Shown: positions 21,178 through 57,998, counted from the first letter of the stretch. The stretch is 64,000 nucleotides of DNA from Escherichia coli (GCA_029351405.1 GCA_029351405.1_4841.1); one strand, 5' to 3'. The notes: generated by a model from the sequence alone, not told the origin. Numbers and translations: made by a program.

Positions 21178-22220
21178 ACTACACCTTCCAGGAACTTAGG
21201 ATCAACGATCTTGCGGTCAACCGGGGAATGGGTGAGCGCGGCGTTCAATCCATGATCCTGAATCAGGTCCAGGTTAATGAGCTTGTTATTCAATTTGCAG
21301 TGCAGGCAGTATGCCATCTGCACAATCAGACCGCGATCCGCATCATACTCCTTCAGGAAGGCAACAACAGTTTCCCAAGGACTACCGAAGTCACAATGAA
21401 CAAGCACGCCAGTGAACAGATCGCGGATATGGTTCTGGTTGGTCACGTTCGTGAAGTGGATCATGGAGTTGATGAACCCAGCTTCTACTTTGGTGTCCTT
21501 CGTGATCTTGCCCAGCTGCTTCTGGCTGACTTCATTGTTGTAGTAATGAAGATTGTTGGAGAAGAGCTTGTACTGGCCGACGTCAACATCCAACACCCGA
21601 GCAATCACTTCCTGAAGAATAGAGAACTCAATGAAGTTGATTGAACTCATACCCCACAGAACATCCTGTGAGCGATTGATAACCGTCAGGTTCAGGCGAC
21701 CTTCAACGATGGCGAACAACAGAGCCAGGTTACACACCATGTCCTTGGTCTTTGCTTCGCCACTCTCACTGAACTTCGCCAGACCAGCATCTGAATCCAG
21801 AGCCGGATCATAGATGGTGAGGTACGCCTGGCGAGTGTTTGGATTCTTGCGCAGGCGGTTGATGACGCTATCCAGCTGGCCATGGGCGTACAGACGCGGA
21901 CCATAAGCGGCTCGCCATGTGTGGCCGTTGTCGGAAAAGTTGGCGGCGCGGGGCAACACGCGGGACAGGAAGCGAACGTCATCGCGCCCGGACAGAACCC
22001 AGAAGGTCTCGCCGATGGCGGCGATAGCCGATGAGTTACGACCTTCAACGGATAGCCAGCGGTCACGGATGTCGGCGACGGTTATGGTCACGCCATCAAG
22101 GAAGCGGGTGCTATCAGTATTGATTTCAGCATTACCAGGATCAGATTCGATCCCGAATTCACGGATAGCCAAGACAGCCTGTTTCAGCATGTCATTGTTG
22201 TTTATTGCTTTGATTTCCAT
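21174..22220 (-). CDS. thymidylate synthase-family enzyme (TS or pyrimidine hydroxymethylase)
   Basis: ThyA-family motifs: RQAYLTIYDP, Cys-containing VCN segment, NRSQDVLWGMSSINFIEFSILQ; 348 aa with C-terminal extension. Confidence 0.7.
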   Translation of the reverse strand: MEIKAINNNDMLKQAVLAIREFGIESDPGNAEINTDSTRFLDGVTITVADIRDRWLSVEGRNSSAIAAIGETFWVLSGRDDVRFLSRVLPRAANFSDNGHTWRAAYGPRLYAHGQLDSVINRLRKNPNTRQAYLTIYDPALDSDAGLAKFSESGEAKTKDMVCNLALLFAIVEGRLNLTVINRSQDVLWGMSSINFIEFSILQEVIARVLDVDVGQYKLFSNNLHYYNNEVSQKQLGKITKDTKVEAGFINSMIHFTNVTNQNHIRDLFTGVLVHCDFGSPWETVVAFLKEYDADRGLIVQMAYCLHCKLNNKLINLDLIQDHGLNAALTHSPVDRKIVDPKFLEGVV

Positions 22221-22879
22221 CAGATACTCCCAAAATCACGACAGAGGAATGCCATCACAGCCTGGTCTACTGTTAGGCCGTGAGACTTCATCATACCCGC
22301 AGCCACCGTAGGGAACAAGTCTTTATGTCGTTGACGATGGTCATGAACTCTCTCCCACTTCTCGACCACCAGACTTTCATTGAAATCCACACCGCCGTTG
22401 CGTGATTTAACGCGGGTGATACACGTTTCAAGAGGAGTGTCCATAAAGAGCACAACCAATTCACGTGGTGGGCGTGTCAGGCGGGGGATCCAAGAACTCA
22501 ATAATGTGGATGGAATGATACCTTCGAAAATCACATCATATTTCAAGTATTCTGGTTGGTCAGCAATAGACAACGCGAACAACATCTGCTCAGTGTCCTT
22601 CAGGGAATCAACCCCCTTGGACTTCGACTTGTCATATTTACCGATACAGACCACGTTGAACGAAGGACAGACAGTCAGCATGACCTTGCCGTTATGGGTC
22701 ACGACATACGCCTGAGGATCCCTCTCCGCCAGCTGAGACGGCACAGTGGATTTACCGCTACCATTGGAGCCTTTGACGTAGTAGATTTGCCCTCGTGCTG
22801 GGTATATCCCCTTCACAACAGGTGGTTTAAAGAATGTGTGGACGGGGCGCTTCATCAGCCCCTTCAGGGAGTAGGACAT
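22220..22879 (-). CDS. P-loop kinase (candidate nucleotide / DNA-base kinase)
   Basis: Walker A GSNGSGKST; start at internal ATG with GGAG ribosome-binding site; abuts ThyA-family gene. Confidence 0.5.
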   Translation of the reverse strand: MSYSLKGLMKRPVHTFFKPPVVKGIYPARGQIYYVKGSNGSGKSTVPSQLAERDPQAYVVTHNGKVMLTVCPSFNVVCIGKYDKSKSKGVDSLKDTEQMLFALSIADQPEYLKYDVIFEGIIPSTLLSSWIPRLTRPPRELVVLFMDTPLETCITRVKSRNGGVDFNESLVVEKWERVHDHRQRHKDLFPTVAAGMMKSHGLTVDQAVMAFLCRDFGSI

Positions 22880-22894
22880 AGACTGCTCCAATAA

Positions 22895-22923
22895 ACAAAA
22901 GGAGCTGCTATTATAGCAGCCCC
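22895..22923 (-). terminator. rho-independent terminator
   Basis: GCTGCTA-loop-TAGCAGC hairpin followed by TTTTGTTTATT on minus strand, after stop of 22955..23776. Confidence 0.5.
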
Positions 22924-22954
22924 TTCATCTATTGAACAGTTTCTGAACTTAAAT

Positions 22955-23776
22955 TTACACAGCTTTCGCTTCAGCCAGAGCCTGTGGAAGCCATTCATTG
23001 ATCGCCTTAACCAGAGACTCAGCATCAGACTCTTTGATCTTCTGACGTTTGGTGAAGGACTTGCCGTTTACGTACAGACTGAAGCCCCAGCCACCGGAAA
23101 CGATAGGCGCAACGTCGACATACGTATTGGTGCGGGCGTGAAGGTTTTCAGGGTTAGCCAGTTCGGTGACCGGGAACTGGAACCAACGCATGTCTGGGTT
23201 CACGTAGCTCAGGAACACGCCGGGGACAACACCAGCTTCAATCGCCGCCAAGACCGGACCGTGATTAGAAGCGCGAGCCAAGTCAACCATTTCCTCACGT
23301 TTGGTGTGACGGCGTTTACGCTCTACCAGCGCTGCCTGCGGGGTCAGGGTCTTACCCTTCGATGCTTCTTTCAACATAGAAGACGCCAAGGAGCCGATTT
23401 TCGCGTCGGACGGCTGATTGCCTTCTTCCAGCGCCGCGTTGACTGCATCTTGAACCGCGTCTACTGGGGCTTCACAAGCATCGGCAGAGATCGGTGCTTC
23501 AGCATCAACGGTTTCAGCGACTTTCAGGGATACTTCAGCTTGGGCTTGCTCTTGGGCTTGCGCCAGAGCCTGCTGAGTTTCTTCCTTCTCTTCGGCGCTC
23601 AGACCTTCAATCAGTTCGAAGCCGTTGGCAGCCTGAAGAACACCTTCAACCATACGGCGCAGGGTAACGTTTCCGATGATCAGACCTGCTTCTTTGATTT
23701 CAGCCTGAATAGCAGCAACGTCTTTGCCTTCAATTTCAATTTTGGTTCCAGAATCCACATGAAGAATATATGACAT
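22955..23776 (-). CDS. hypothetical protein with acidic low-complexity centre
   Basis: 273 aa; E/Q/A-rich repeat-like segment (EEKEETQQALAQAQEQAQAE); own promoter and terminator. Confidence 0.5.
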   Translation of the reverse strand: MSYILHVDSGTKIEIEGKDVAAIQAEIKEAGLIIGNVTLRRMVEGVLQAANGFELIEGLSAEEKEETQQALAQAQEQAQAEVSLKVAETVDAEAPISADACEAPVDAVQDAVNAALEEGNQPSDAKIGSLASSMLKEASKGKTLTPQAALVERKRRHTKREEMVDLARASNHGPVLAAIEAGVVPGVFLSYVNPDMRWFQFPVTELANPENLHARTNTYVDVAPIVSGGWGFSLYVNGKSFTKRQKIKESDAESLVKAINEWLPQALAEAKAV

Positions 23777-23844
23777 AATAAAAACCCTTTCGTTATTAAG
23801 ACCGTATCCGCGGCATATTGTTGTTCTGACTGTGTAGTGAGAAC

Positions 23845-23873
23845 ATAATATACTGCATTTTCATAGATGTAAA
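23845..23873 (-). promoter_or_regulatory. sigma70 / T4-early-type promoter
   Basis: Minus-strand TTTACA -35, 17-nt spacer, TATTAT -10, about 65 nt upstream of ATG at 23776. Confidence 0.5.
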
Positions 23874-23965
23874 CTACTTTTTATTGAAAAGAAAGTTAAC
23901 ACCTTAGTGTTATAAGGTGCGCGACCAAGCGGAGCGCGAACTTGCGTGAATATTAACTTTCTACG

Positions 23966-24241
23966 TCAATATAGAAAAACCATTTCCGGTGGCCAACAAT
24001 TTGTTAGCTCGACTTTTGCGAACCGTGGTTGGCAGTACGCATCAACCGACTCATCAAACAGACAGTGTTCTACATTTGCAATCATCAGATCATCATCCAC
24101 CACTTCAACAGAATGGACAATGATCTTGTGGTCATACGTCAGGCAACCGTCTAAATGCATGTTGTCAGCGCGGAGGTGTTGCATGATGAAATACTCTATG
24201 ATCGACTCAAGGACAGTCGTCAGCTTCAGATAACGTTTCAT
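23966..24241 (-). CDS. hypothetical protein (91 aa)
   Basis: ORF with GAGAGGTG ribosome-binding site, co-oriented with neighbours. Confidence 0.4.
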   Translation of the reverse strand: MKRYLKLTTVLESIIEYFIMQHLRADNMHLDGCLTYDHKIIVHSVEVVDDDLMIANVEHCLFDESVDAYCQPRFAKVELTNCWPPEMVFLY

Positions 24242-24261
24242 ACACACCTCTCACATTGGAG

Positions 24262-25011
24262 TTATTTGGACAGATAGAAGTTTGGAACTTCAGGGAAATG
24301 CTCTGGTAGATATCCCACCAGAACATCCTGTTTCACCTTCCCTTCGATATCTTCGCGGATACGACGAATCACATCTTCCTGTTGTTCTGCTGCCATCACT
24401 TCTTCCATGGCTGAGTACAAGTTTTCTAGAATGACACCTACGTAGTTGTGGATGGCACGACAGGAGTTCTGATCATACTCCATATCCGGATGAATCGCCA
24501 GGTCGACCTGATCACGCCCTACCAGCAGATGCCCAGACACCAGATTTATCGGGTATTTGAATACTTCACCAGATTTGACAGCAACTCCGTCGGCTTGCTT
24601 CAGCAGGAATTCGGTTTCAGAGAAGCGTTCAAGTAGTTCCGATGGGAATACCATATCGAGATTCTGATGTTTACGACCAAAGAAGTACAGACAATGCGCC
24701 AGTTTCAGGCATGCATCGGTGGCCATCTTCATGTGTGCTTTAGCGTGTTCATAACCAGCGATCACATCACGGACATAATCGTACAGGTCGGAATGACCAA
24801 AACGGATGTCCTCTTCGAAGCGGATTGCTGTTTCACTGTCCGGTTTCACACCCAGAACATCGAAAATATTTTGTTCACGAACGGATCTGCCGTTTCGATC
24901 GAAACCCAGAACGCAACCGACTTCGAATCCACTCTTTTCAAAATTTGGGAGTTTCATATCAAGGCGAGCTGGGGTAAACTCTAACCCGAACATACGATAA
25001 ATTTGTGACAT
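24262..25011 (-). CDS. hypothetical protein
   Basis: 249 aa ORF, no recognised motif. Confidence 0.5.
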   Translation of the reverse strand: MSQIYRMFGLEFTPARLDMKLPNFEKSGFEVGCVLGFDRNGRSVREQNIFDVLGVKPDSETAIRFEEDIRFGHSDLYDYVRDVIAGYEHAKAHMKMATDACLKLAHCLYFFGRKHQNLDMVFPSELLERFSETEFLLKQADGVAVKSGEVFKYPINLVSGHLLVGRDQVDLAIHPDMEYDQNSCRAIHNYVGVILENLYSAMEEVMAAEQQEDVIRRIREDIEGKVKQDVLVGYLPEHFPEVPNFYLSK

Positions 25012-25073
25012 GTTATAGCCTCATCATTTAGGATTACCTGTTCACGAATTATCCCTCGGAACGGGTTATAGAA

Positions 25074-25778
25074 CTATTTCTTCTTATGCATACGACGTGC
25101 ATCTTTCCACACAGACATCTGGCTCTGTTTCTGGAAGCGGGCAGTGCGCATGAAGAGAACGATCTCCCAGTACTGTGGCTCAATCTCGTAAAGCTGTGAA
25201 CGGAACTGATCGGCGCGGTACAGCTTCACACAGTGATTGTACAGCGGATGGTTGGCGAAGCGCTTCAGGGCTTCCCAGGTGAGCTTCAGACGCGTCTTCG
25301 AGCGGTATGCCCGTTCGTTACGCAACTTGATCAGATCCTCAAACACCAACAGCCTGAGCTTCGGTGGCAGGTAGTGCATGTTGAGTCCCCAGAGGTATGT
25401 CACACCCTTCTCTCCAAAGGTGATACCATCACCCTTGACAAAGTTGAAGAAGAACACCAGAGGGTACATATCCCAGTAGGGTAGTTCATTCTTCGTCAGA
25501 GCATCATATTTGAAATAGAACATACGCCCGACTATATACCGCACACCTTGTACCGGACGTTTATGATCAGCGAATGCCTGTTTCATATGGTTGGGACTCA
25601 GGTTGGCGTCCTTAGACACACGCTCCATGAACCACAAATGCGAACGGCGGATGTTACGCTTCGCCTCTGGGCCGAAGTGTTGACGGTACTTGCGGATGTA
25701 ACGCTTGACCAGCTCGGGGGCGTCCATCTCGGCCGGAAACAGCAACGGATCTTCTTCGCCAGCTGCATTCTTTGCCAT
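25074..25778 (-). CDS. hypothetical protein
   Basis: 234 aa ORF, basic C-terminus, no recognised motif. Confidence 0.5.
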   Translation of the reverse strand: MAKNAAGEEDPLLFPAEMDAPELVKRYIRKYRQHFGPEAKRNIRRSHLWFMERVSKDANLSPNHMKQAFADHKRPVQGVRYIVGRMFYFKYDALTKNELPYWDMYPLVFFFNFVKGDGITFGEKGVTYLWGLNMHYLPPKLRLLVFEDLIKLRNERAYRSKTRLKLTWEALKRFANHPLYNHCVKLYRADQFRSQLYEIEPQYWEIVLFMRTARFQKQSQMSVWKDARRMHKKK

Positions 25779-25789
25779 TTGTCAACTCC

Positions 25790-25798
25790 TATAAATAA
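25790..25798 (+). promoter_or_regulatory. T4-type late promoter (TATAAATA)
   Basis: Exact TATAAATA about 34 nt upstream of GTG start at 25832; GGAG ribosome-binding site between. Confidence 0.6.
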
Positions 25799-25831
25799 TA
25801 ACAGTTATTTTATTTAAGTGGAGTCCTCATC

Positions 25832-47801: not shown

Positions 47802-48077
47802 TTAACGGCGGAAAGGGCGGTTTGCGTTTTCGCGGTTAGACCAATTCTTTTCAGCCCGAGCGATAGCCGCTGGACTCCATTCGCGCTCCCACTCTTTGTC
47901 TACTTCAGCCTGGTTGGCAGGCTCTACCATTTCAACGCCAGGGAAGTCGCATGACATGATTTCGCGCAGCTGGGCAGCTGGGGCGGTCTGGGCGTGGATC
48001 AATTCTTCGCCGTCGTAAACCTTGGCCATCAGGTATTTCTGACCGTGGCGGATATATGCGTCGAGGATAATTTTCAT
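47802..48077 (-). CDS. hypothetical protein
   Basis: Start at Met inside AGGAACTACACCATG cassette. Confidence 0.45.
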   Translation of the reverse strand: MKIILDAYIRHGQKYLMAKVYDGEELIHAQTAPAAQLREIMSCDFPGVEMVEPANQAEVDKEWEREWSPAAIARAEKNWSNRENANRPFRR

Positions 48078-48192
48078 GGTGTAGTTCCTGCTTTTCAAGT
48101 TGGTGTTGTACTGCTTATGGAATGAAGTATAGGGAAGGATATTGAAGAAGTAAAGGGGCGAAAGCCCCTTTTATTGAATTATTTTTACGGCG

Positions 48193-57719: not shown

Positions 57720-57998
57720 TTACTTGCCGTTGGCAGCGTTCTTCAGACCTTCGCCCACTTTGAATTTCACAACGTTTTTCGCCGCGATCTGAATGGTCTG
57801 GCCGTTCAGAGGGTTGCGACCTTCACGCGCTTCTTGGTGTTTCACTTCGAACGCACCGAAGCCGACCAGCTGTACAGATGCGCCTGCAGCAACTGCAGTC
57901 TTAACACCGTCGATAAAGGATGCCACTACTTTCTCCGCTTCGCCTTTGGTGATATTCTGGGTCGAAGCAATGTGGGCAACAAATTCAGTACGATTCAT
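57720..57998 (-). CDS. HU/IHF-family DNA-binding protein
   Basis: 92 aa with HU signature (GFGAFEVKHQEAREGRNPLNGQTIQI). Confidence 0.8.
   Translation of the reverse strand: MNRTEFVAHIASTQNITKGEAEKVVASFIDGVKTAVAAGASVQLVGFGAFEVKHQEAREGRNPLNGQTIQIAAKNVVKFKVGEGLKNAANGK

What the first reader, a model, noticed from the sequence alone, without database searches (positions are those of the whole stretch)
22955..25778. Uncharacterised genes flanking the modification block, including an autonomous early unit with an acidic core
Gene 22955..23776 has its own T4-early-type promoter (TTTACA-N17-TATTAT) and its own terminator, and encodes a 273-aa protein with a strongly acidic E/Q/A-rich centre and a structured C-terminal half. 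The next genes upstream (23966..24241, 24262..25011, 25074..25778) have no recognisable motifs. In hypermodifying phages the base-transfer and PLP-dependent enzymes usually sit near the kinase, so these are candidates for the missing pathway steps or for host-takeover functions. A DNA-mimic role for the acidic protein is speculation.
Basis: inference. Interest (0 to 1): 0.5.

Follow-up and report, generated by a model that had tools for sequence, protein, structure and literature searches.

The report
Abundant early gene beside thymidine-modification genes
Four phage genes flagged as unknown are one known DNA-end-protector gene, two small lineage-specific genes of unknown role, and a heavily expressed non-enzyme gene that sits inside or beside the DNA thymidine-modification gene cluster in all 15 relatives examined and has never been studied.

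Summary
The window is an Ackermannviridae (Agtrevirus-like) phage, 98% identical to Escherichia phages RPN242 and AV101. All four ORFs are real genes under purifying selection.

The promoter (TTTACA, 23873..23845) and terminator (22926..22898, -26 kcal/mol) of gene A (22955..23776) are present and conserved across six genera. Both were already listed for phage AG3 in 2011.

- **Gene 25074..25778** is not motif-free. It is the T4 gp2 DNA end protector, with an invariant late-promoter-like motif upstream.
- **Genes C (249 aa) and B (91 aa)** follow gp2 on the same strand. They have no known family. C has no fold match and no conserved catalytic residues. They occur only in enterobacterial Ackermannviridae.

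The "missing pathway enzyme" reading is not supported. The ViI pathway has been reconstituted with known enzymes encoded elsewhere, and none of the four proteins looks enzymatic.

However, A-family genes lie immediately upstream of the 5-hmdU DNA kinase or hydroxymethylase genes in every relative examined. In four metagenomic phage contigs they sit in the middle of the full hypermodification cluster. A is most likely an abundant non-catalytic partner-binding protein of that module. Its function remains inferred.

The parts
22898..22926 (-). Intrinsic terminator of gene A. Its loop carries TGCTATAAT, an extended -10 element that probably serves as promoter for the downstream kinase/hydroxymethylase operon.
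   Evidence: 13-bp stem followed by a U-tract. dG -26.1 kcal/mol, z -6.5. Nearly invariant in six genera; phiMAM1 has a different stem but the same TATAAT loop. Listed as Torf069 and Porf067 in AG3.
22955..23776 (-). Gene A: 273-aa acidic protein (pI 4.9), PHROG 3905, ortholog of ViI Vi01_062c, AG3 orf069 and Sajous1 gp29.
   Evidence: ORF. PHROG 3905 at E 1e-134, unknown function. 343 phage records carry a homolog. Only 30 clusters found among 1.84 billion representative proteins. Fraction of optimal codons 0.725, rank 3 of 76. dN/dS 0.09-0.14.
23606..23776 (-). A N-terminal domain (residues 1-57), predicted beta-beta-alpha-alpha-beta, with conserved IGxxTLR...NGFE motif.
   Evidence: pLDDT 76-87. 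Conserved down to Vibrio and metagenomic homologs. Also found joined to a DUF3489-like domain in P0157 and P0159.
23324..23605 (-). A acidic linker (residues 58-151): E/Q/A-rich, disordered, hypervariable in sequence and length.
   Evidence: Net charge -11, pI 4.1. Contains the segments with pLDDT below 50. Indel-rich; homolog proteins range from 273 to 476 aa.
22958..23323 (-). A basic helix (ERKRRHTKREEMV) plus C-terminal alpha/beta domain (residues 152-273), pI 9.0.
23845..23873 (-). Sigma-70 / T4-early-type promoter of gene A (TTTACA ... TATATT/TATTAT), with an A-rich tract just upstream.
   Evidence: 10 of 12 consensus positions. The -35 TTTAC and the -10 are conserved across six genera. 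Listed as Porf069 in AG3.
23899..23920 (-). Weak hairpin followed by a U-rich tail after gene B; possible end of the gp2-C-B transcript.
   Evidence: Found by the terminator scan. dG -10.5 kcal/mol, z -2.3.
23966..24241 (-). Gene B: 91-aa acidic protein (pI 4.8), PHROG 4562, ortholog of Vi01_063c.
   Evidence: PHROG 4562 at E 1e-46, unknown function. 256 phage records; none of them a Dickeya phage, and the CRW-SP2 locus has no B gene. Conserved HSVE..DD.L..A.VEH motif and no conserved Cys. No profile match in PDB.
24262..25011 (-). Gene C: 249-aa protein, PHROG 4253, ortholog of Vi01_064c. Long helical hairpin with a small beta insert.
25036..25066 (-). Conserved hairpin between gp2 and C, with GATAAT in its loop.
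   Evidence: Alignment shows compensatory changes: ACCCGTTC/GAACAGGT here against AGCCGTTC/GAACGGCT in ViI. Fold energies -12.4 (window), -15.7 (ViI) and -19.2 (PWKp5) kcal/mol.
25074..25778 (-). Gene D: gp2 DNA end protector homolog, 234 aa, pI 10.0.
   Evidence: PHROG 429 at E 4e-67. tblastn hits gene 2 of T4-like phages, e.g. RB51 at 31% identity, E 2e-17. Annotated as gp2 in AV101, ViI and AG3. Ortholog detected in Sajous1 virions with 3 spectra.
25811..25817 (-). Late-promoter-like motif TTAAATA, 32 nt upstream of the gp2 start codon.
   Evidence: TAAATA is invariant in seven genera within a short divergent intergenic region. The facing TATAAATA at 25790..25797 (+) serves the gp54-like tail-tube gene.

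Best explanation
The region holds two separate transcription units.

**Unit 1: gp2 - C - B (25778 down to 23966).** It starts at a conserved late-type promoter motif. D is the T4-type gp2 DNA end protector. C and B are lineage-restricted, non-enzymatic accessory proteins of unknown role that travel with gp2 only in enterobacterial Ackermannviridae.

**Unit 2: gene A, a monocistronic cassette.** It has a T4-early-like sigma-70 promoter and a strong terminator. The terminator loop doubles as the -10 element of the next operon: 5-hmdU DNA kinase, dUMP hydroxymethylase, dNMP kinase, MazG-like NTPase, UvsX, helicase.

**What A is.** A is not an enzyme. It has a small N-terminal domain and a basic helix plus an alpha/beta C-terminal domain with a secretion-chaperone/YbjN-like fold. 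A disordered acidic tether of very variable length joins them.

**Inferred mechanism.** Host RNA polymerase makes A early and in large amounts. A then acts stoichiometrically as a two-headed adaptor or partner-binding protein within the hydroxymethyl-dU / thymidine-hypermodification and replication module. It could hold the modifying enzymes, or another partner, at newly made hmdU DNA.

**Shown:** gene structure, regulatory signals and their conservation, domain architecture, absence of enzyme signatures, high codon adaptation, and the gene neighbourhood.

**Inferred:** early timing, abundance, the binding role and the identity of the partners.
For: - **Regulatory signals.** Promoter and terminator are present and conserved. 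The late-promoter motif before gp2 is invariant in seven genera.
- **gp2 identity.**
- **Architecture of A.**
- **No enzyme family or conserved catalytic residue.**
- **Expression.** A has the 3rd highest fraction of E. coli-preferred codons among 76 window ORFs, above gp32. Its ortholog Sajous1 gp29 is identified by synteny and 55% identity. It gave 10 spectra in a phage preparation that also contained other non-structural proteins such as RegB and SSB.
- **Neighbourhood.**
  - A lies immediately upstream of the HMUDK_HMUD1 kinase or the thymidylate-synthase-like gene in ViI, Sajous1, PWKp5, IME250, phiMAM1 and Ea2809.
  - The same holds in CRW-SP2 and Vibrio phages D509, K469 and VPALA.
  - In four metagenomic phage contigs (L012, L019, L020, L021) the order is HMUD2, ADDT and HMUDK_hel (in varying order), then A, then HMUDK_HMUD1 where present, then the TS-like gene. 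In L019, four other genes lie between HMUDK_hel and A.
  - Two further contigs show A followed by HMUDK1.
  - In the rearranged contig L017, A stays two genes from HMUDK1.
  - gp2, B and C are not linked to A in the Vibrio and metagenomic relatives.
Against: - No experiment or transcriptome exists for any member, so early timing and abundance rest on sequence proxies.
- The conserved neighbourhood may reflect vertical inheritance of one collinear replication block rather than function.
- About 17 of 62 Vibrio phage records have A but no detectable HMUDK_HMUD1. CRW-SP2 and D509 lack the adjacent kinase. A therefore cannot depend strictly on that kinase.
- Hypermodification was reconstituted in vitro without A.
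- tblastn of A against the phage collection matched only Ackermannviridae and related Vibrio phages. It therefore found nothing in PhiW-14, M6, SP10 or SPO1, if those genomes are in the collection.
- C and B remain functionally blank.
Confidence: 0.4

Rival explanations
1. A is a stoichiometric inhibitor or decoy aimed at a host protein. Candidate targets are a nuclease or glycosylase that would attack hmdU DNA, host thymidylate synthase, RecA or RecBCD. The chaperone-like C-terminal domain would bind the target, and the acidic tail might mimic nucleic acid.
For: - Early sigma-70-type promoter and very high codon adaptation.
- Acidic linker with net charge -11.
- From general knowledge: uracil-DNA phages make an acidic early inhibitor (Ugi), and hmdU phages of Bacillus inhibit host thymidylate synthase.
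Against: - The acidic region is disordered and varies widely in sequence and length (A proteins range from 273 to 476 aa). Ocr, ArdA and Ugi are rigid mimics.
- The two globular domains are conserved from Enterobacteria to Vibrio and to uncultured phages of unknown host. That fits a phage partner better than a fast-changing host target.
- No match to any PADLOC defence-system model. That library does not cover anti-defence proteins, so this says little.
Confidence: 0.22
2. A is a DNA-associated protein of the infected cell, an abundant binder of hmdU or hypermodified DNA comparable in role to SPO1 TF1. It would bind through the basic helix and C-terminal domain, with the acidic tail acting as an autoinhibitory or spacing element.
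For: - The C-terminal half has pI 9.0, with an invariant ERKRRHxKRE helix and conserved aromatic residues.
- Abundance proxy.
- Position inside the hmdU module.
- The same N-terminal domain is joined, through an Ala/Lys/Pro-rich linker, to a DUF3489-like domain in P0157 and P0159. From memory, that domain is a predicted winged helix.
Against: - The protein is acidic overall (pI 4.9).
- No DNA-binding fold was detected. The top fold hits are protein-binding chaperones.
- The DUF3489 hits are below threshold (E 0.006).
- The basic motif is not invariant in the most distant members.
Confidence: 0.18
3. A is a virion-packaged (internal or ejected) protein delivered with the DNA, like the neighbouring gp2.
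For: - The ortholog Sajous1 gp29 gave 10 spectra from CsCl-purified virions, more than gp2 with 3.
- gp2 lies nearby.
Against: - The same preparation contained clearly non-structural proteins: RegB with 31 spectra, SSB with 5, and thymidylate synthase.
- The LIMEstone1 virion proteome of 39 proteins lists gp54 (ORF50) but no ORF between 33 and 49, where the A ortholog lies.
- No A ortholog appears in any PDB entry.
- The candidate protease-type sites IEIE and LIE are not conserved.
- The promoter is early type, not late.
Confidence: 0.08
4. One reading: A, B and C are missing enzymes of the thymidine hypermodification pathway, such as a transferase, a PLP enzyme or a pyrophosphorylase.
For: Adjacency to the 5-hmdU DNA kinase and hydroxymethylase. 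A is embedded in full clusters in relatives.
Against: - The pathway has been reconstituted from known enzymes encoded elsewhere.
- No enzyme family, fold or conserved catalytic residue was found.
- B and C are absent from the Vibrio and metagenomic relatives that keep the cluster.
- The codon bias of A suggests stoichiometric rather than catalytic amounts.
Confidence: 0.04

Closest known systems
T4 gp2 DNA end protector (PHROG 429; Pfam Phage_T4_gp2)
   Same: Gene D shares sequence homology over about 70-90% of its length, similar size and a strongly basic charge. It has a late-type promoter motif, and its ortholog was detected at low level in virions.
   Different: Only about 30% identical to the gp2 of T4-like phages such as RB51. 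Here it is followed by two genes (C and B) that were not found in the other phage groups examined. Protection against RecBCD is untested.
Type III secretion chaperones (CesT/SycE class) and YbjN-family proteins (AmyR, DR_1245), and PsiB
   Different: No sequence-family membership. A carries an extra N-terminal domain, an acidic disordered linker and a basic helix. It is a phage early protein with no secretion system involved. The resemblance may be convergent.
Thymidine hypermodification gene clusters (5-HMUDK, aGPT-Pplase/ADDT, PLP decarboxylase; ViI, M6, PhiW-14)
   Same: A-family genes lie inside or directly beside these clusters in all 15 relatives examined.
   Different: A is not one of the described enzymes and is not needed for the in vitro reaction. 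tblastn of A against the phage collection matched only Ackermannviridae and related Vibrio phages, not the M6, PhiW-14 or SP10 groups. It also occurs in phages lacking the HMUDK_HMUD1 kinase.
Acidic DNA-mimic anti-restriction proteins (Ocr, ArdA, Ugi)
   Same: Early expression signal and a strongly acidic segment.
T4 early promoters and intrinsic terminators
   Same: The -35 GTTTACA, a TATAAT-like -10 and an A-rich upstream tract match the T4 early promoter pattern as I recall it. The terminator is canonical.
   Different: It is the only such promoter match in the 64-kb window. The terminator loop itself carries a conserved extended -10 for the next operon.

Membership tests
T4 gp2 DNA end protector (gene D) | Sequence homology to T4-type gp2 | tested here: met
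   PHROG 429 at E 4e-67, covering positions 8-210 of 210. tblastn to gene 2 of RB51, Acj9, Bp7 and others at E 1e-16 to 1e-20.
T4 gp2 DNA end protector (gene D) | Basic protein of about 25-30 kDa | tested here: met
   234 aa, pI 9.99, 44 K+R against 24 D+E.
T4 gp2 DNA end protector (gene D) | Late expression and presence in the virion | tested here: inconclusive
   Invariant TAAATA motif 32 nt upstream in seven genera. The ortholog gave 3 spectra in Sajous1 virions but is not listed for LIMEstone1. No transcript data exist.
T4 gp2 DNA end protector (gene D) | Protects genome ends from RecBCD | not testable with these tools
   Requires infection of recBCD+ and recBCD- hosts with a gene D mutant.
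Thymidine hypermodification enzymes (5-HMUDK, aGPT-Pplase/ADDT, PLP decarboxylase), considered for A, B and C | Profile match to PF18748, PF18723, PF18724 or a PLP family | tested here: not met
   No Pfam or NCBIfam hit for A, B or C. The neighbouring gene 22220..22891 does hit PF18748 at E 2e-108.
Thymidine hypermodification enzymes, considered for A, B and C | P-loop, DNA-glycosylase-like or PLP fold | tested here: not met
Thymidine hypermodification enzymes, considered for A, B and C | Conserved catalytic residues (PLP lysine; Cys/Glu of aGPT-Pplase2) | tested here: not met
   In C the invariant columns across subfamilies are only M, G, D and N. In A across 18 diverse members only G35 is invariant, with R155 and G228 nearly so. 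B has no conserved Cys or Lys.
Thymidine hypermodification enzymes, considered for A, B and C | Required to make the modified base | not tested
   The literature shows that purified ViI kinase, gp247 and gp226 are enough in vitro (PMC8989533). The in vivo requirement for A is unknown.
Secretion-chaperone / YbjN-like fold (A C-terminal domain) | Alpha/beta fold superposable on CesT/SycE/YbjN proteins | tested here: met
Secretion-chaperone / YbjN-like fold (A C-terminal domain) | Sequence-family membership | tested here: not met
   No Pfam hit in any of 18 diverse members. The profile finds nothing in PDB sequences.
Secretion-chaperone / YbjN-like fold (A C-terminal domain) | Dimer that binds an extended partner polypeptide | not testable with these tools
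   Needs complex prediction or biochemistry.
DNA-mimic anti-restriction proteins (Ocr, ArdA, Ugi), considered for A | Rigid, structured array of acidic side chains imitating DNA | tested here: not met
   The acidic region includes the segments with pLDDT below 50. It is hypervariable in sequence and length.
T4-early-type sigma-70 promoter (upstream of A) | -35 (G)TTTACA, -10 TATAAT-like, 15-17 nt spacer, conserved at the orthologous position | tested here: met
   Early transcription itself is not testable here.
Packaged internal protein of T4 type, considered for A | Conserved N-terminal targeting peptide with an L/I-x-E protease site, and consistent detection in virions | tested here: not met
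   The candidate sites vary (E to D, Q, A or S) among orthologs. The protein was detected in Sajous1 but not in LIMEstone1 virions.

The most novel reading that the evidence does not exclude
The A family is a previously unrecognised, non-catalytic core component of the thymidine hypermodification system in Ackermannviridae-like phages. It would be an abundant two-headed tether that couples the hmdU DNA kinase and transferase enzymes, or their substrate DNA, to replication. It could thereby set how much or where thymidine is modified; only up to about half of thymidines are modified in ViI.
Probability: 0.15. Interest if true: 0.7.

Novelty: new variant of a known kind. Interest (0 to 1): 0.4.

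Why it matters
Thymidine hypermodification protects phage DNA from restriction enzymes. Its chemistry has been worked out with enzymes alone.

How the enzymes are organised in the cell is not known. It is also not known why only part of the thymidines are modified, or what else the module needs in vivo.

A conserved, apparently very abundant, non-enzymatic gene sits at the head of, or inside, that cluster in all 15 relatives examined (11 cultured phages and seven metagenomic contigs). That makes it a concrete and easily testable candidate: delete it, then measure modification level, replication and binding partners.

The rest of the finding is ordinary. One gene is the well-known gp2. The other two are lineage-specific genes of unknown function with no evidence linking them to DNA modification.

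Tried and rejected
- **Family scans.** Pfam, NCBIfam, PHROGs and PADLOC scans of all four proteins gave only PHROG families of unknown function for A, B and C, plus gp2 for D.
- **PDB sequence searches.** Single sequences and profiles found nothing.
- **Pfam on 18 diverse A members.** No recurrent family.
- **Metal site in C.** Rejected, because the Cys and His residues conserved within Aglimvirinae are not conserved in ViI, Taipeivirus or phiMAM1 orthologs.
- **"C evolves continuously fast."** Rejected. dN/dS is 0.07-0.13 within the subfamily. The 29% identity to ViI is a step change between subfamilies.
- **Virion protein reading for A.** Weakened by the LIMEstone1 proteome. The ViI proteome paper (Pickard 2010) is not held. 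The AG3 and phiPD proteome tables gave nothing usable.
- **Transcriptome data.** None found for Ackermannviridae.
- **Other hypermodification genes in the window.** HMUD2, ADDT and HMUDK_hel were not found by tblastn in these 64 kb.
Full report
**Origin and gene map**

The 3.1-kb region is 98% identical to Escherichia phages vB_EcoM-RPN242, ZQ1, A221 and AV101, and 93% identical to Shigella phage AG3. The window is therefore an Agtrevirus-like member of the Ackermannviridae. All four genes lie on the minus strand. I call them:
- A: 22955..23776, 273 aa
- B: 23966..24241, 91 aa
- C: 24262..25011, 249 aa
- D: 25074..25778, 234 aa

Downstream of A lie several related genes:
- a 5-hmdU DNA kinase (22220..22891; PF18748, E 2e-108)
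- a thymidylate-synthase-like dUMP hydroxymethylase
- a dNMP kinase and a MazG-like NTPase
- UvsX and the helicase

Upstream of D, on the other strand, is the gp54-like tail-tube initiator, followed by gp32.

**Checking the observation**

The promoter is at 23873..23845. It matches 10 of 12 consensus positions and is the top hit of the scan. A single consensus match in 64 kb is what chance gives: one found, about 1.1 expected.

Its position and conservation make it credible. Across six genera the spacer upstream of A is poorly conserved, except for an A-rich tract, TTTAC(A/G), and TATA(T/G)T about 16 nt later.

The terminator at 22926..22898 folds at -26.1 kcal/mol with z -6.5. It is almost invariant, and phiMAM1 has a different but still complementary stem.

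The acidic centre is real. Residues 58-151 have net charge -11, pI 4.1 and 45% Ala+Glu+Gln.

The AG3 genome paper already lists this promoter and terminator as Porf069 and Torf069 (PMC3121705 Table S2).

All four genes are under purifying selection against AG3 and a Dickeya phage, with dN/dS from 0.035 to 0.41. They are real genes.

**Gene D**

D is the gp2 DNA end protector. The evidence:
- PHROG 429 at E 4e-67
- tblastn hits to gene 2 of T4-like phages
- pI 10.0
- annotation as gp2 in AV101, ViI and AG3

The short D/gp54 intergenic region contains two motifs invariant in seven genera. TATAAATA on the plus strand serves the tail-tube gene. TTAAATA on the minus strand lies 32 nt before the gp2 start codon. 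These look like divergent late promoters. The statement that this gene has no recognisable motif is therefore wrong.

**Genes C and B**

Both fall in PHROG families of unknown function. Neither matches Pfam, NCBIfam, PADLOC or PDB, even with profiles.

*C: divergence.* C is only 29% identical to its ViI ortholog, while the flanking gp2, kinase and tail-tube proteins are 88-92% identical. Within Aglimvirinae it is under ordinary purifying selection. The divergence is therefore a step between subfamilies, not a steady race.

*B.* B is a small acidic protein with a conserved HSVE..DD.L..A.VEH motif. None of the 256 phage records with a B match is a Dickeya phage, and the CRW-SP2 locus has no B gene.

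*Distribution and transcription.* C and B follow gp2 in every enterobacterial genus examined except those cases. They are missing from the Vibrio and metagenomic relatives. A conserved hairpin with compensatory changes lies between gp2 and C. A weak hairpin follows B. Their orthologs were not detected in Sajous1 or LIMEstone1 virions. Their function is unknown. The best I can say is that they are non-enzymatic accessory genes probably co-transcribed with gp2.

**Gene A: anatomy**

Alignment of 26 orthologs, and then of much more distant members, shows three parts:
- a conserved N-terminal domain (residues 1-57, motif IGxxTLR...NGFE)
- a hypervariable acidic linker full of indels (whole proteins range from 273 to 476 aa)
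- a conserved C-terminal half with a basic helix (ERKRRHTKREEMV) and the motifs NPDxRWF and GGWGFSLYVxGKS

The AlphaFold model has mean pLDDT 66. The two ends are confident and the linker is not.

No sequence family is detected in any of 18 diverse members. A profile search of 1.84 billion representative proteins finds only 30 clusters, nearly all of similar length. Foldseek against viral models returns only uncharacterised relatives from Serratia, Erwinia, Aeromonas and Vibrio phages.

**Gene A: expression**

A has the third highest fraction of E. coli-preferred codons of 76 ORFs in the window: 0.725 against a median of 0.551 and 0.66 for gp32. The list of preferred codons is from my own knowledge.

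The ortholog Sajous1 gp29, identified by synteny and 55% identity, gave 10 spectra from CsCl-purified phage. That sample also contained RegB, SSB and thymidylate synthase. The 39-protein LIMEstone1 virion proteome has nothing between ORF32 and ORF50. I therefore read the detection as carry-over of an abundant non-structural protein, not as packaging.

**Gene A: neighbourhood**

This is the most informative result.

- **Cultured Ackermannviridae.** In every genus examined, A is the gene immediately upstream of the kinase / TS-like operon.
- **CRW-SP2 and Vibrio phage D509.** The kinase is missing and A directly precedes the TS-like gene.
- **Vibrio phages K469 and VPALA.** The order is A, kinase, TS, and gp2 lies about 65 kb away.
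- **Metagenomic contigs L012, L019, L020 and L021** (homologs 20-27% identical).
  - The order is HMUD2, ADDT and HMUDK_hel (in varying order), then A, then HMUDK_HMUD1 (absent in L012), then the TS-like gene, a MazG-like gene, UvsX and DnaB.
  - In L019, four other genes lie between HMUDK_hel and A. A therefore lies in the middle of the full thymidine-hypermodification cluster.
- **Two shorter contigs** show A followed by HMUDK1, and one shows A followed by TS.
- **Rearranged contig L017.** A keeps HMUDK1 two genes away.

There are limits to this evidence:
- The block may simply be inherited as a unit.
- 62 Vibrio phage records have A but only 45 have HMUDK1.
- tblastn of A against the phage collection matched only Ackermannviridae and related Vibrio phages, so nothing was found in PhiW-14, M6 or SP10.

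**What the literature says**

The ViI modification (5-NeOmdU) needs three activities: 5-hmdU DNA kinase (gp67, the ortholog of 22220..22891, and gp243), serine:DNA transferase (gp247) and PLP decarboxylase (gp226). These have been shown with purified proteins (PMC8989533; PMC5889632). Those genes are scattered in the genome, and none of their homologs lies in this window.

Neither paper mentions the A family. There is therefore no missing chemical step for A, B or C to fill.

**Interpretation**

The region has two units: a late gp2-C-B unit, and an autonomous early, strongly expressed gene A.

I take A to be a non-catalytic, stoichiometric, two-domain adaptor or partner-binding protein belonging to the hmdU / hypermodification-replication module (confidence about 0.4).

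The rivals are:
- an inhibitor of a host protein (0.22)
- a binder of modified DNA (0.18). This gets weak support from two distant proteins in which the same N-terminal domain is joined to a DUF3489-like domain.
- a packaged protein (0.08)
- a missing enzyme (0.04)

A structured DNA mimic is unlikely because the acidic part is disordered and hypervariable.

**Novelty and score**

gp2, the promoter and the terminator are already known. B and C are ordinary conserved hypothetical genes.

What is new is the picture of A: its domain architecture, the signs of very high expression, and its constant place in or next to thymidine-modification clusters. That makes it a possible new accessory part of a known system, which is testable by simple genetics.

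Interest is 0.4, because the link is by association only.

Noticed in passing
window 22898..22926 (-), with the -35-like TTCAAT at about 22934..22939: The loop of A's terminator hairpin reads TGCTATAAT, an extended -10 element. The TATAAT is invariant across six genera even where the stem sequence differs (phiMAM1). This looks like a combined terminator and promoter feeding the kinase/hydroxymethylase operon. AG3 lists both features separately.
   Followed up: partly
window 25779..25831: Divergent late-promoter motifs invariant in seven genera: TATAAATA (25790..25797, +) before the gp54-like gene and TTAAATA (25817..25811, -) before gp2. The AG3 paper's 'Porf072' sequence is actually the plus-strand TATAAATA, which points at orf073. 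Only three exact TATAAATA sites occur in the whole window.
   Followed up: partly
window 25036..25066 (-): Conserved hairpin between gp2 and C with compensatory base changes between genera and GATAAT in the loop. It is weaker in this window (-12.4 kcal/mol) than in ViI or PWKp5.
   Followed up: partly
window 22220..22891 (-), and RefSeq records such as NC_013693 orf00067 and NC_020083 gp148: The 5-hmdU DNA kinase (PF18748, E 2e-108) also matches PHROG 800, labelled 'terminase small subunit'. It is annotated under that name in many public genomes. This is a propagated misannotation.
   Followed up: partly
window 24262..25011 (-) compared with L003 2791..3522: Gene C is 29% identical to its ViI ortholog while the flanking genes are 88-92% identical, yet dN/dS within the subfamily is low. 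This suggests an old allelic replacement or one episode of rapid change.
   Followed up: partly
Vibrio phage records such as OZ195733 (L004) and the CRW-SP2 locus (L008): Some relatives keep gene A directly in front of the hydroxymethylase gene but lack the HMUDK_HMUD1 kinase. 62 Vibrio records have A and only 45 have the kinase.
   Followed up: partly
window 23966..24241 (-): B ends four residues earlier here (…VFLY) than in other orthologs (…VFNIDVES). None of the phage records with a B match is a Dickeya phage, and the CRW-SP2 locus has no B gene.
   Followed up: no
P0157 (L024 5001..5918) and P0159 (L025 2776..3681): Two metagenomic phage proteins share A's N-terminal domain. They carry an Ala/Lys/Pro-rich linker and a different C-terminal domain with sub-threshold DUF3489 matches (E 0.006 each). 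The N-terminal domain may be a reusable module.
   Followed up: partly
window 57720..57998 (-) and 47802..48098 (-): Two small ORFs (92 and 98 aa) have the highest fraction of host-preferred codons in the window (0.78 and 0.73), above gene A. They were not examined.
   Followed up: no
L001 4141..4267 (AV101 record OQ973471, 52469..52595): The AV101 record carries a misc_feature 'Dupl_ends_SPAdes' inside the dNMP kinase gene region. It is an assembly note rather than a biological feature.
   Followed up: no
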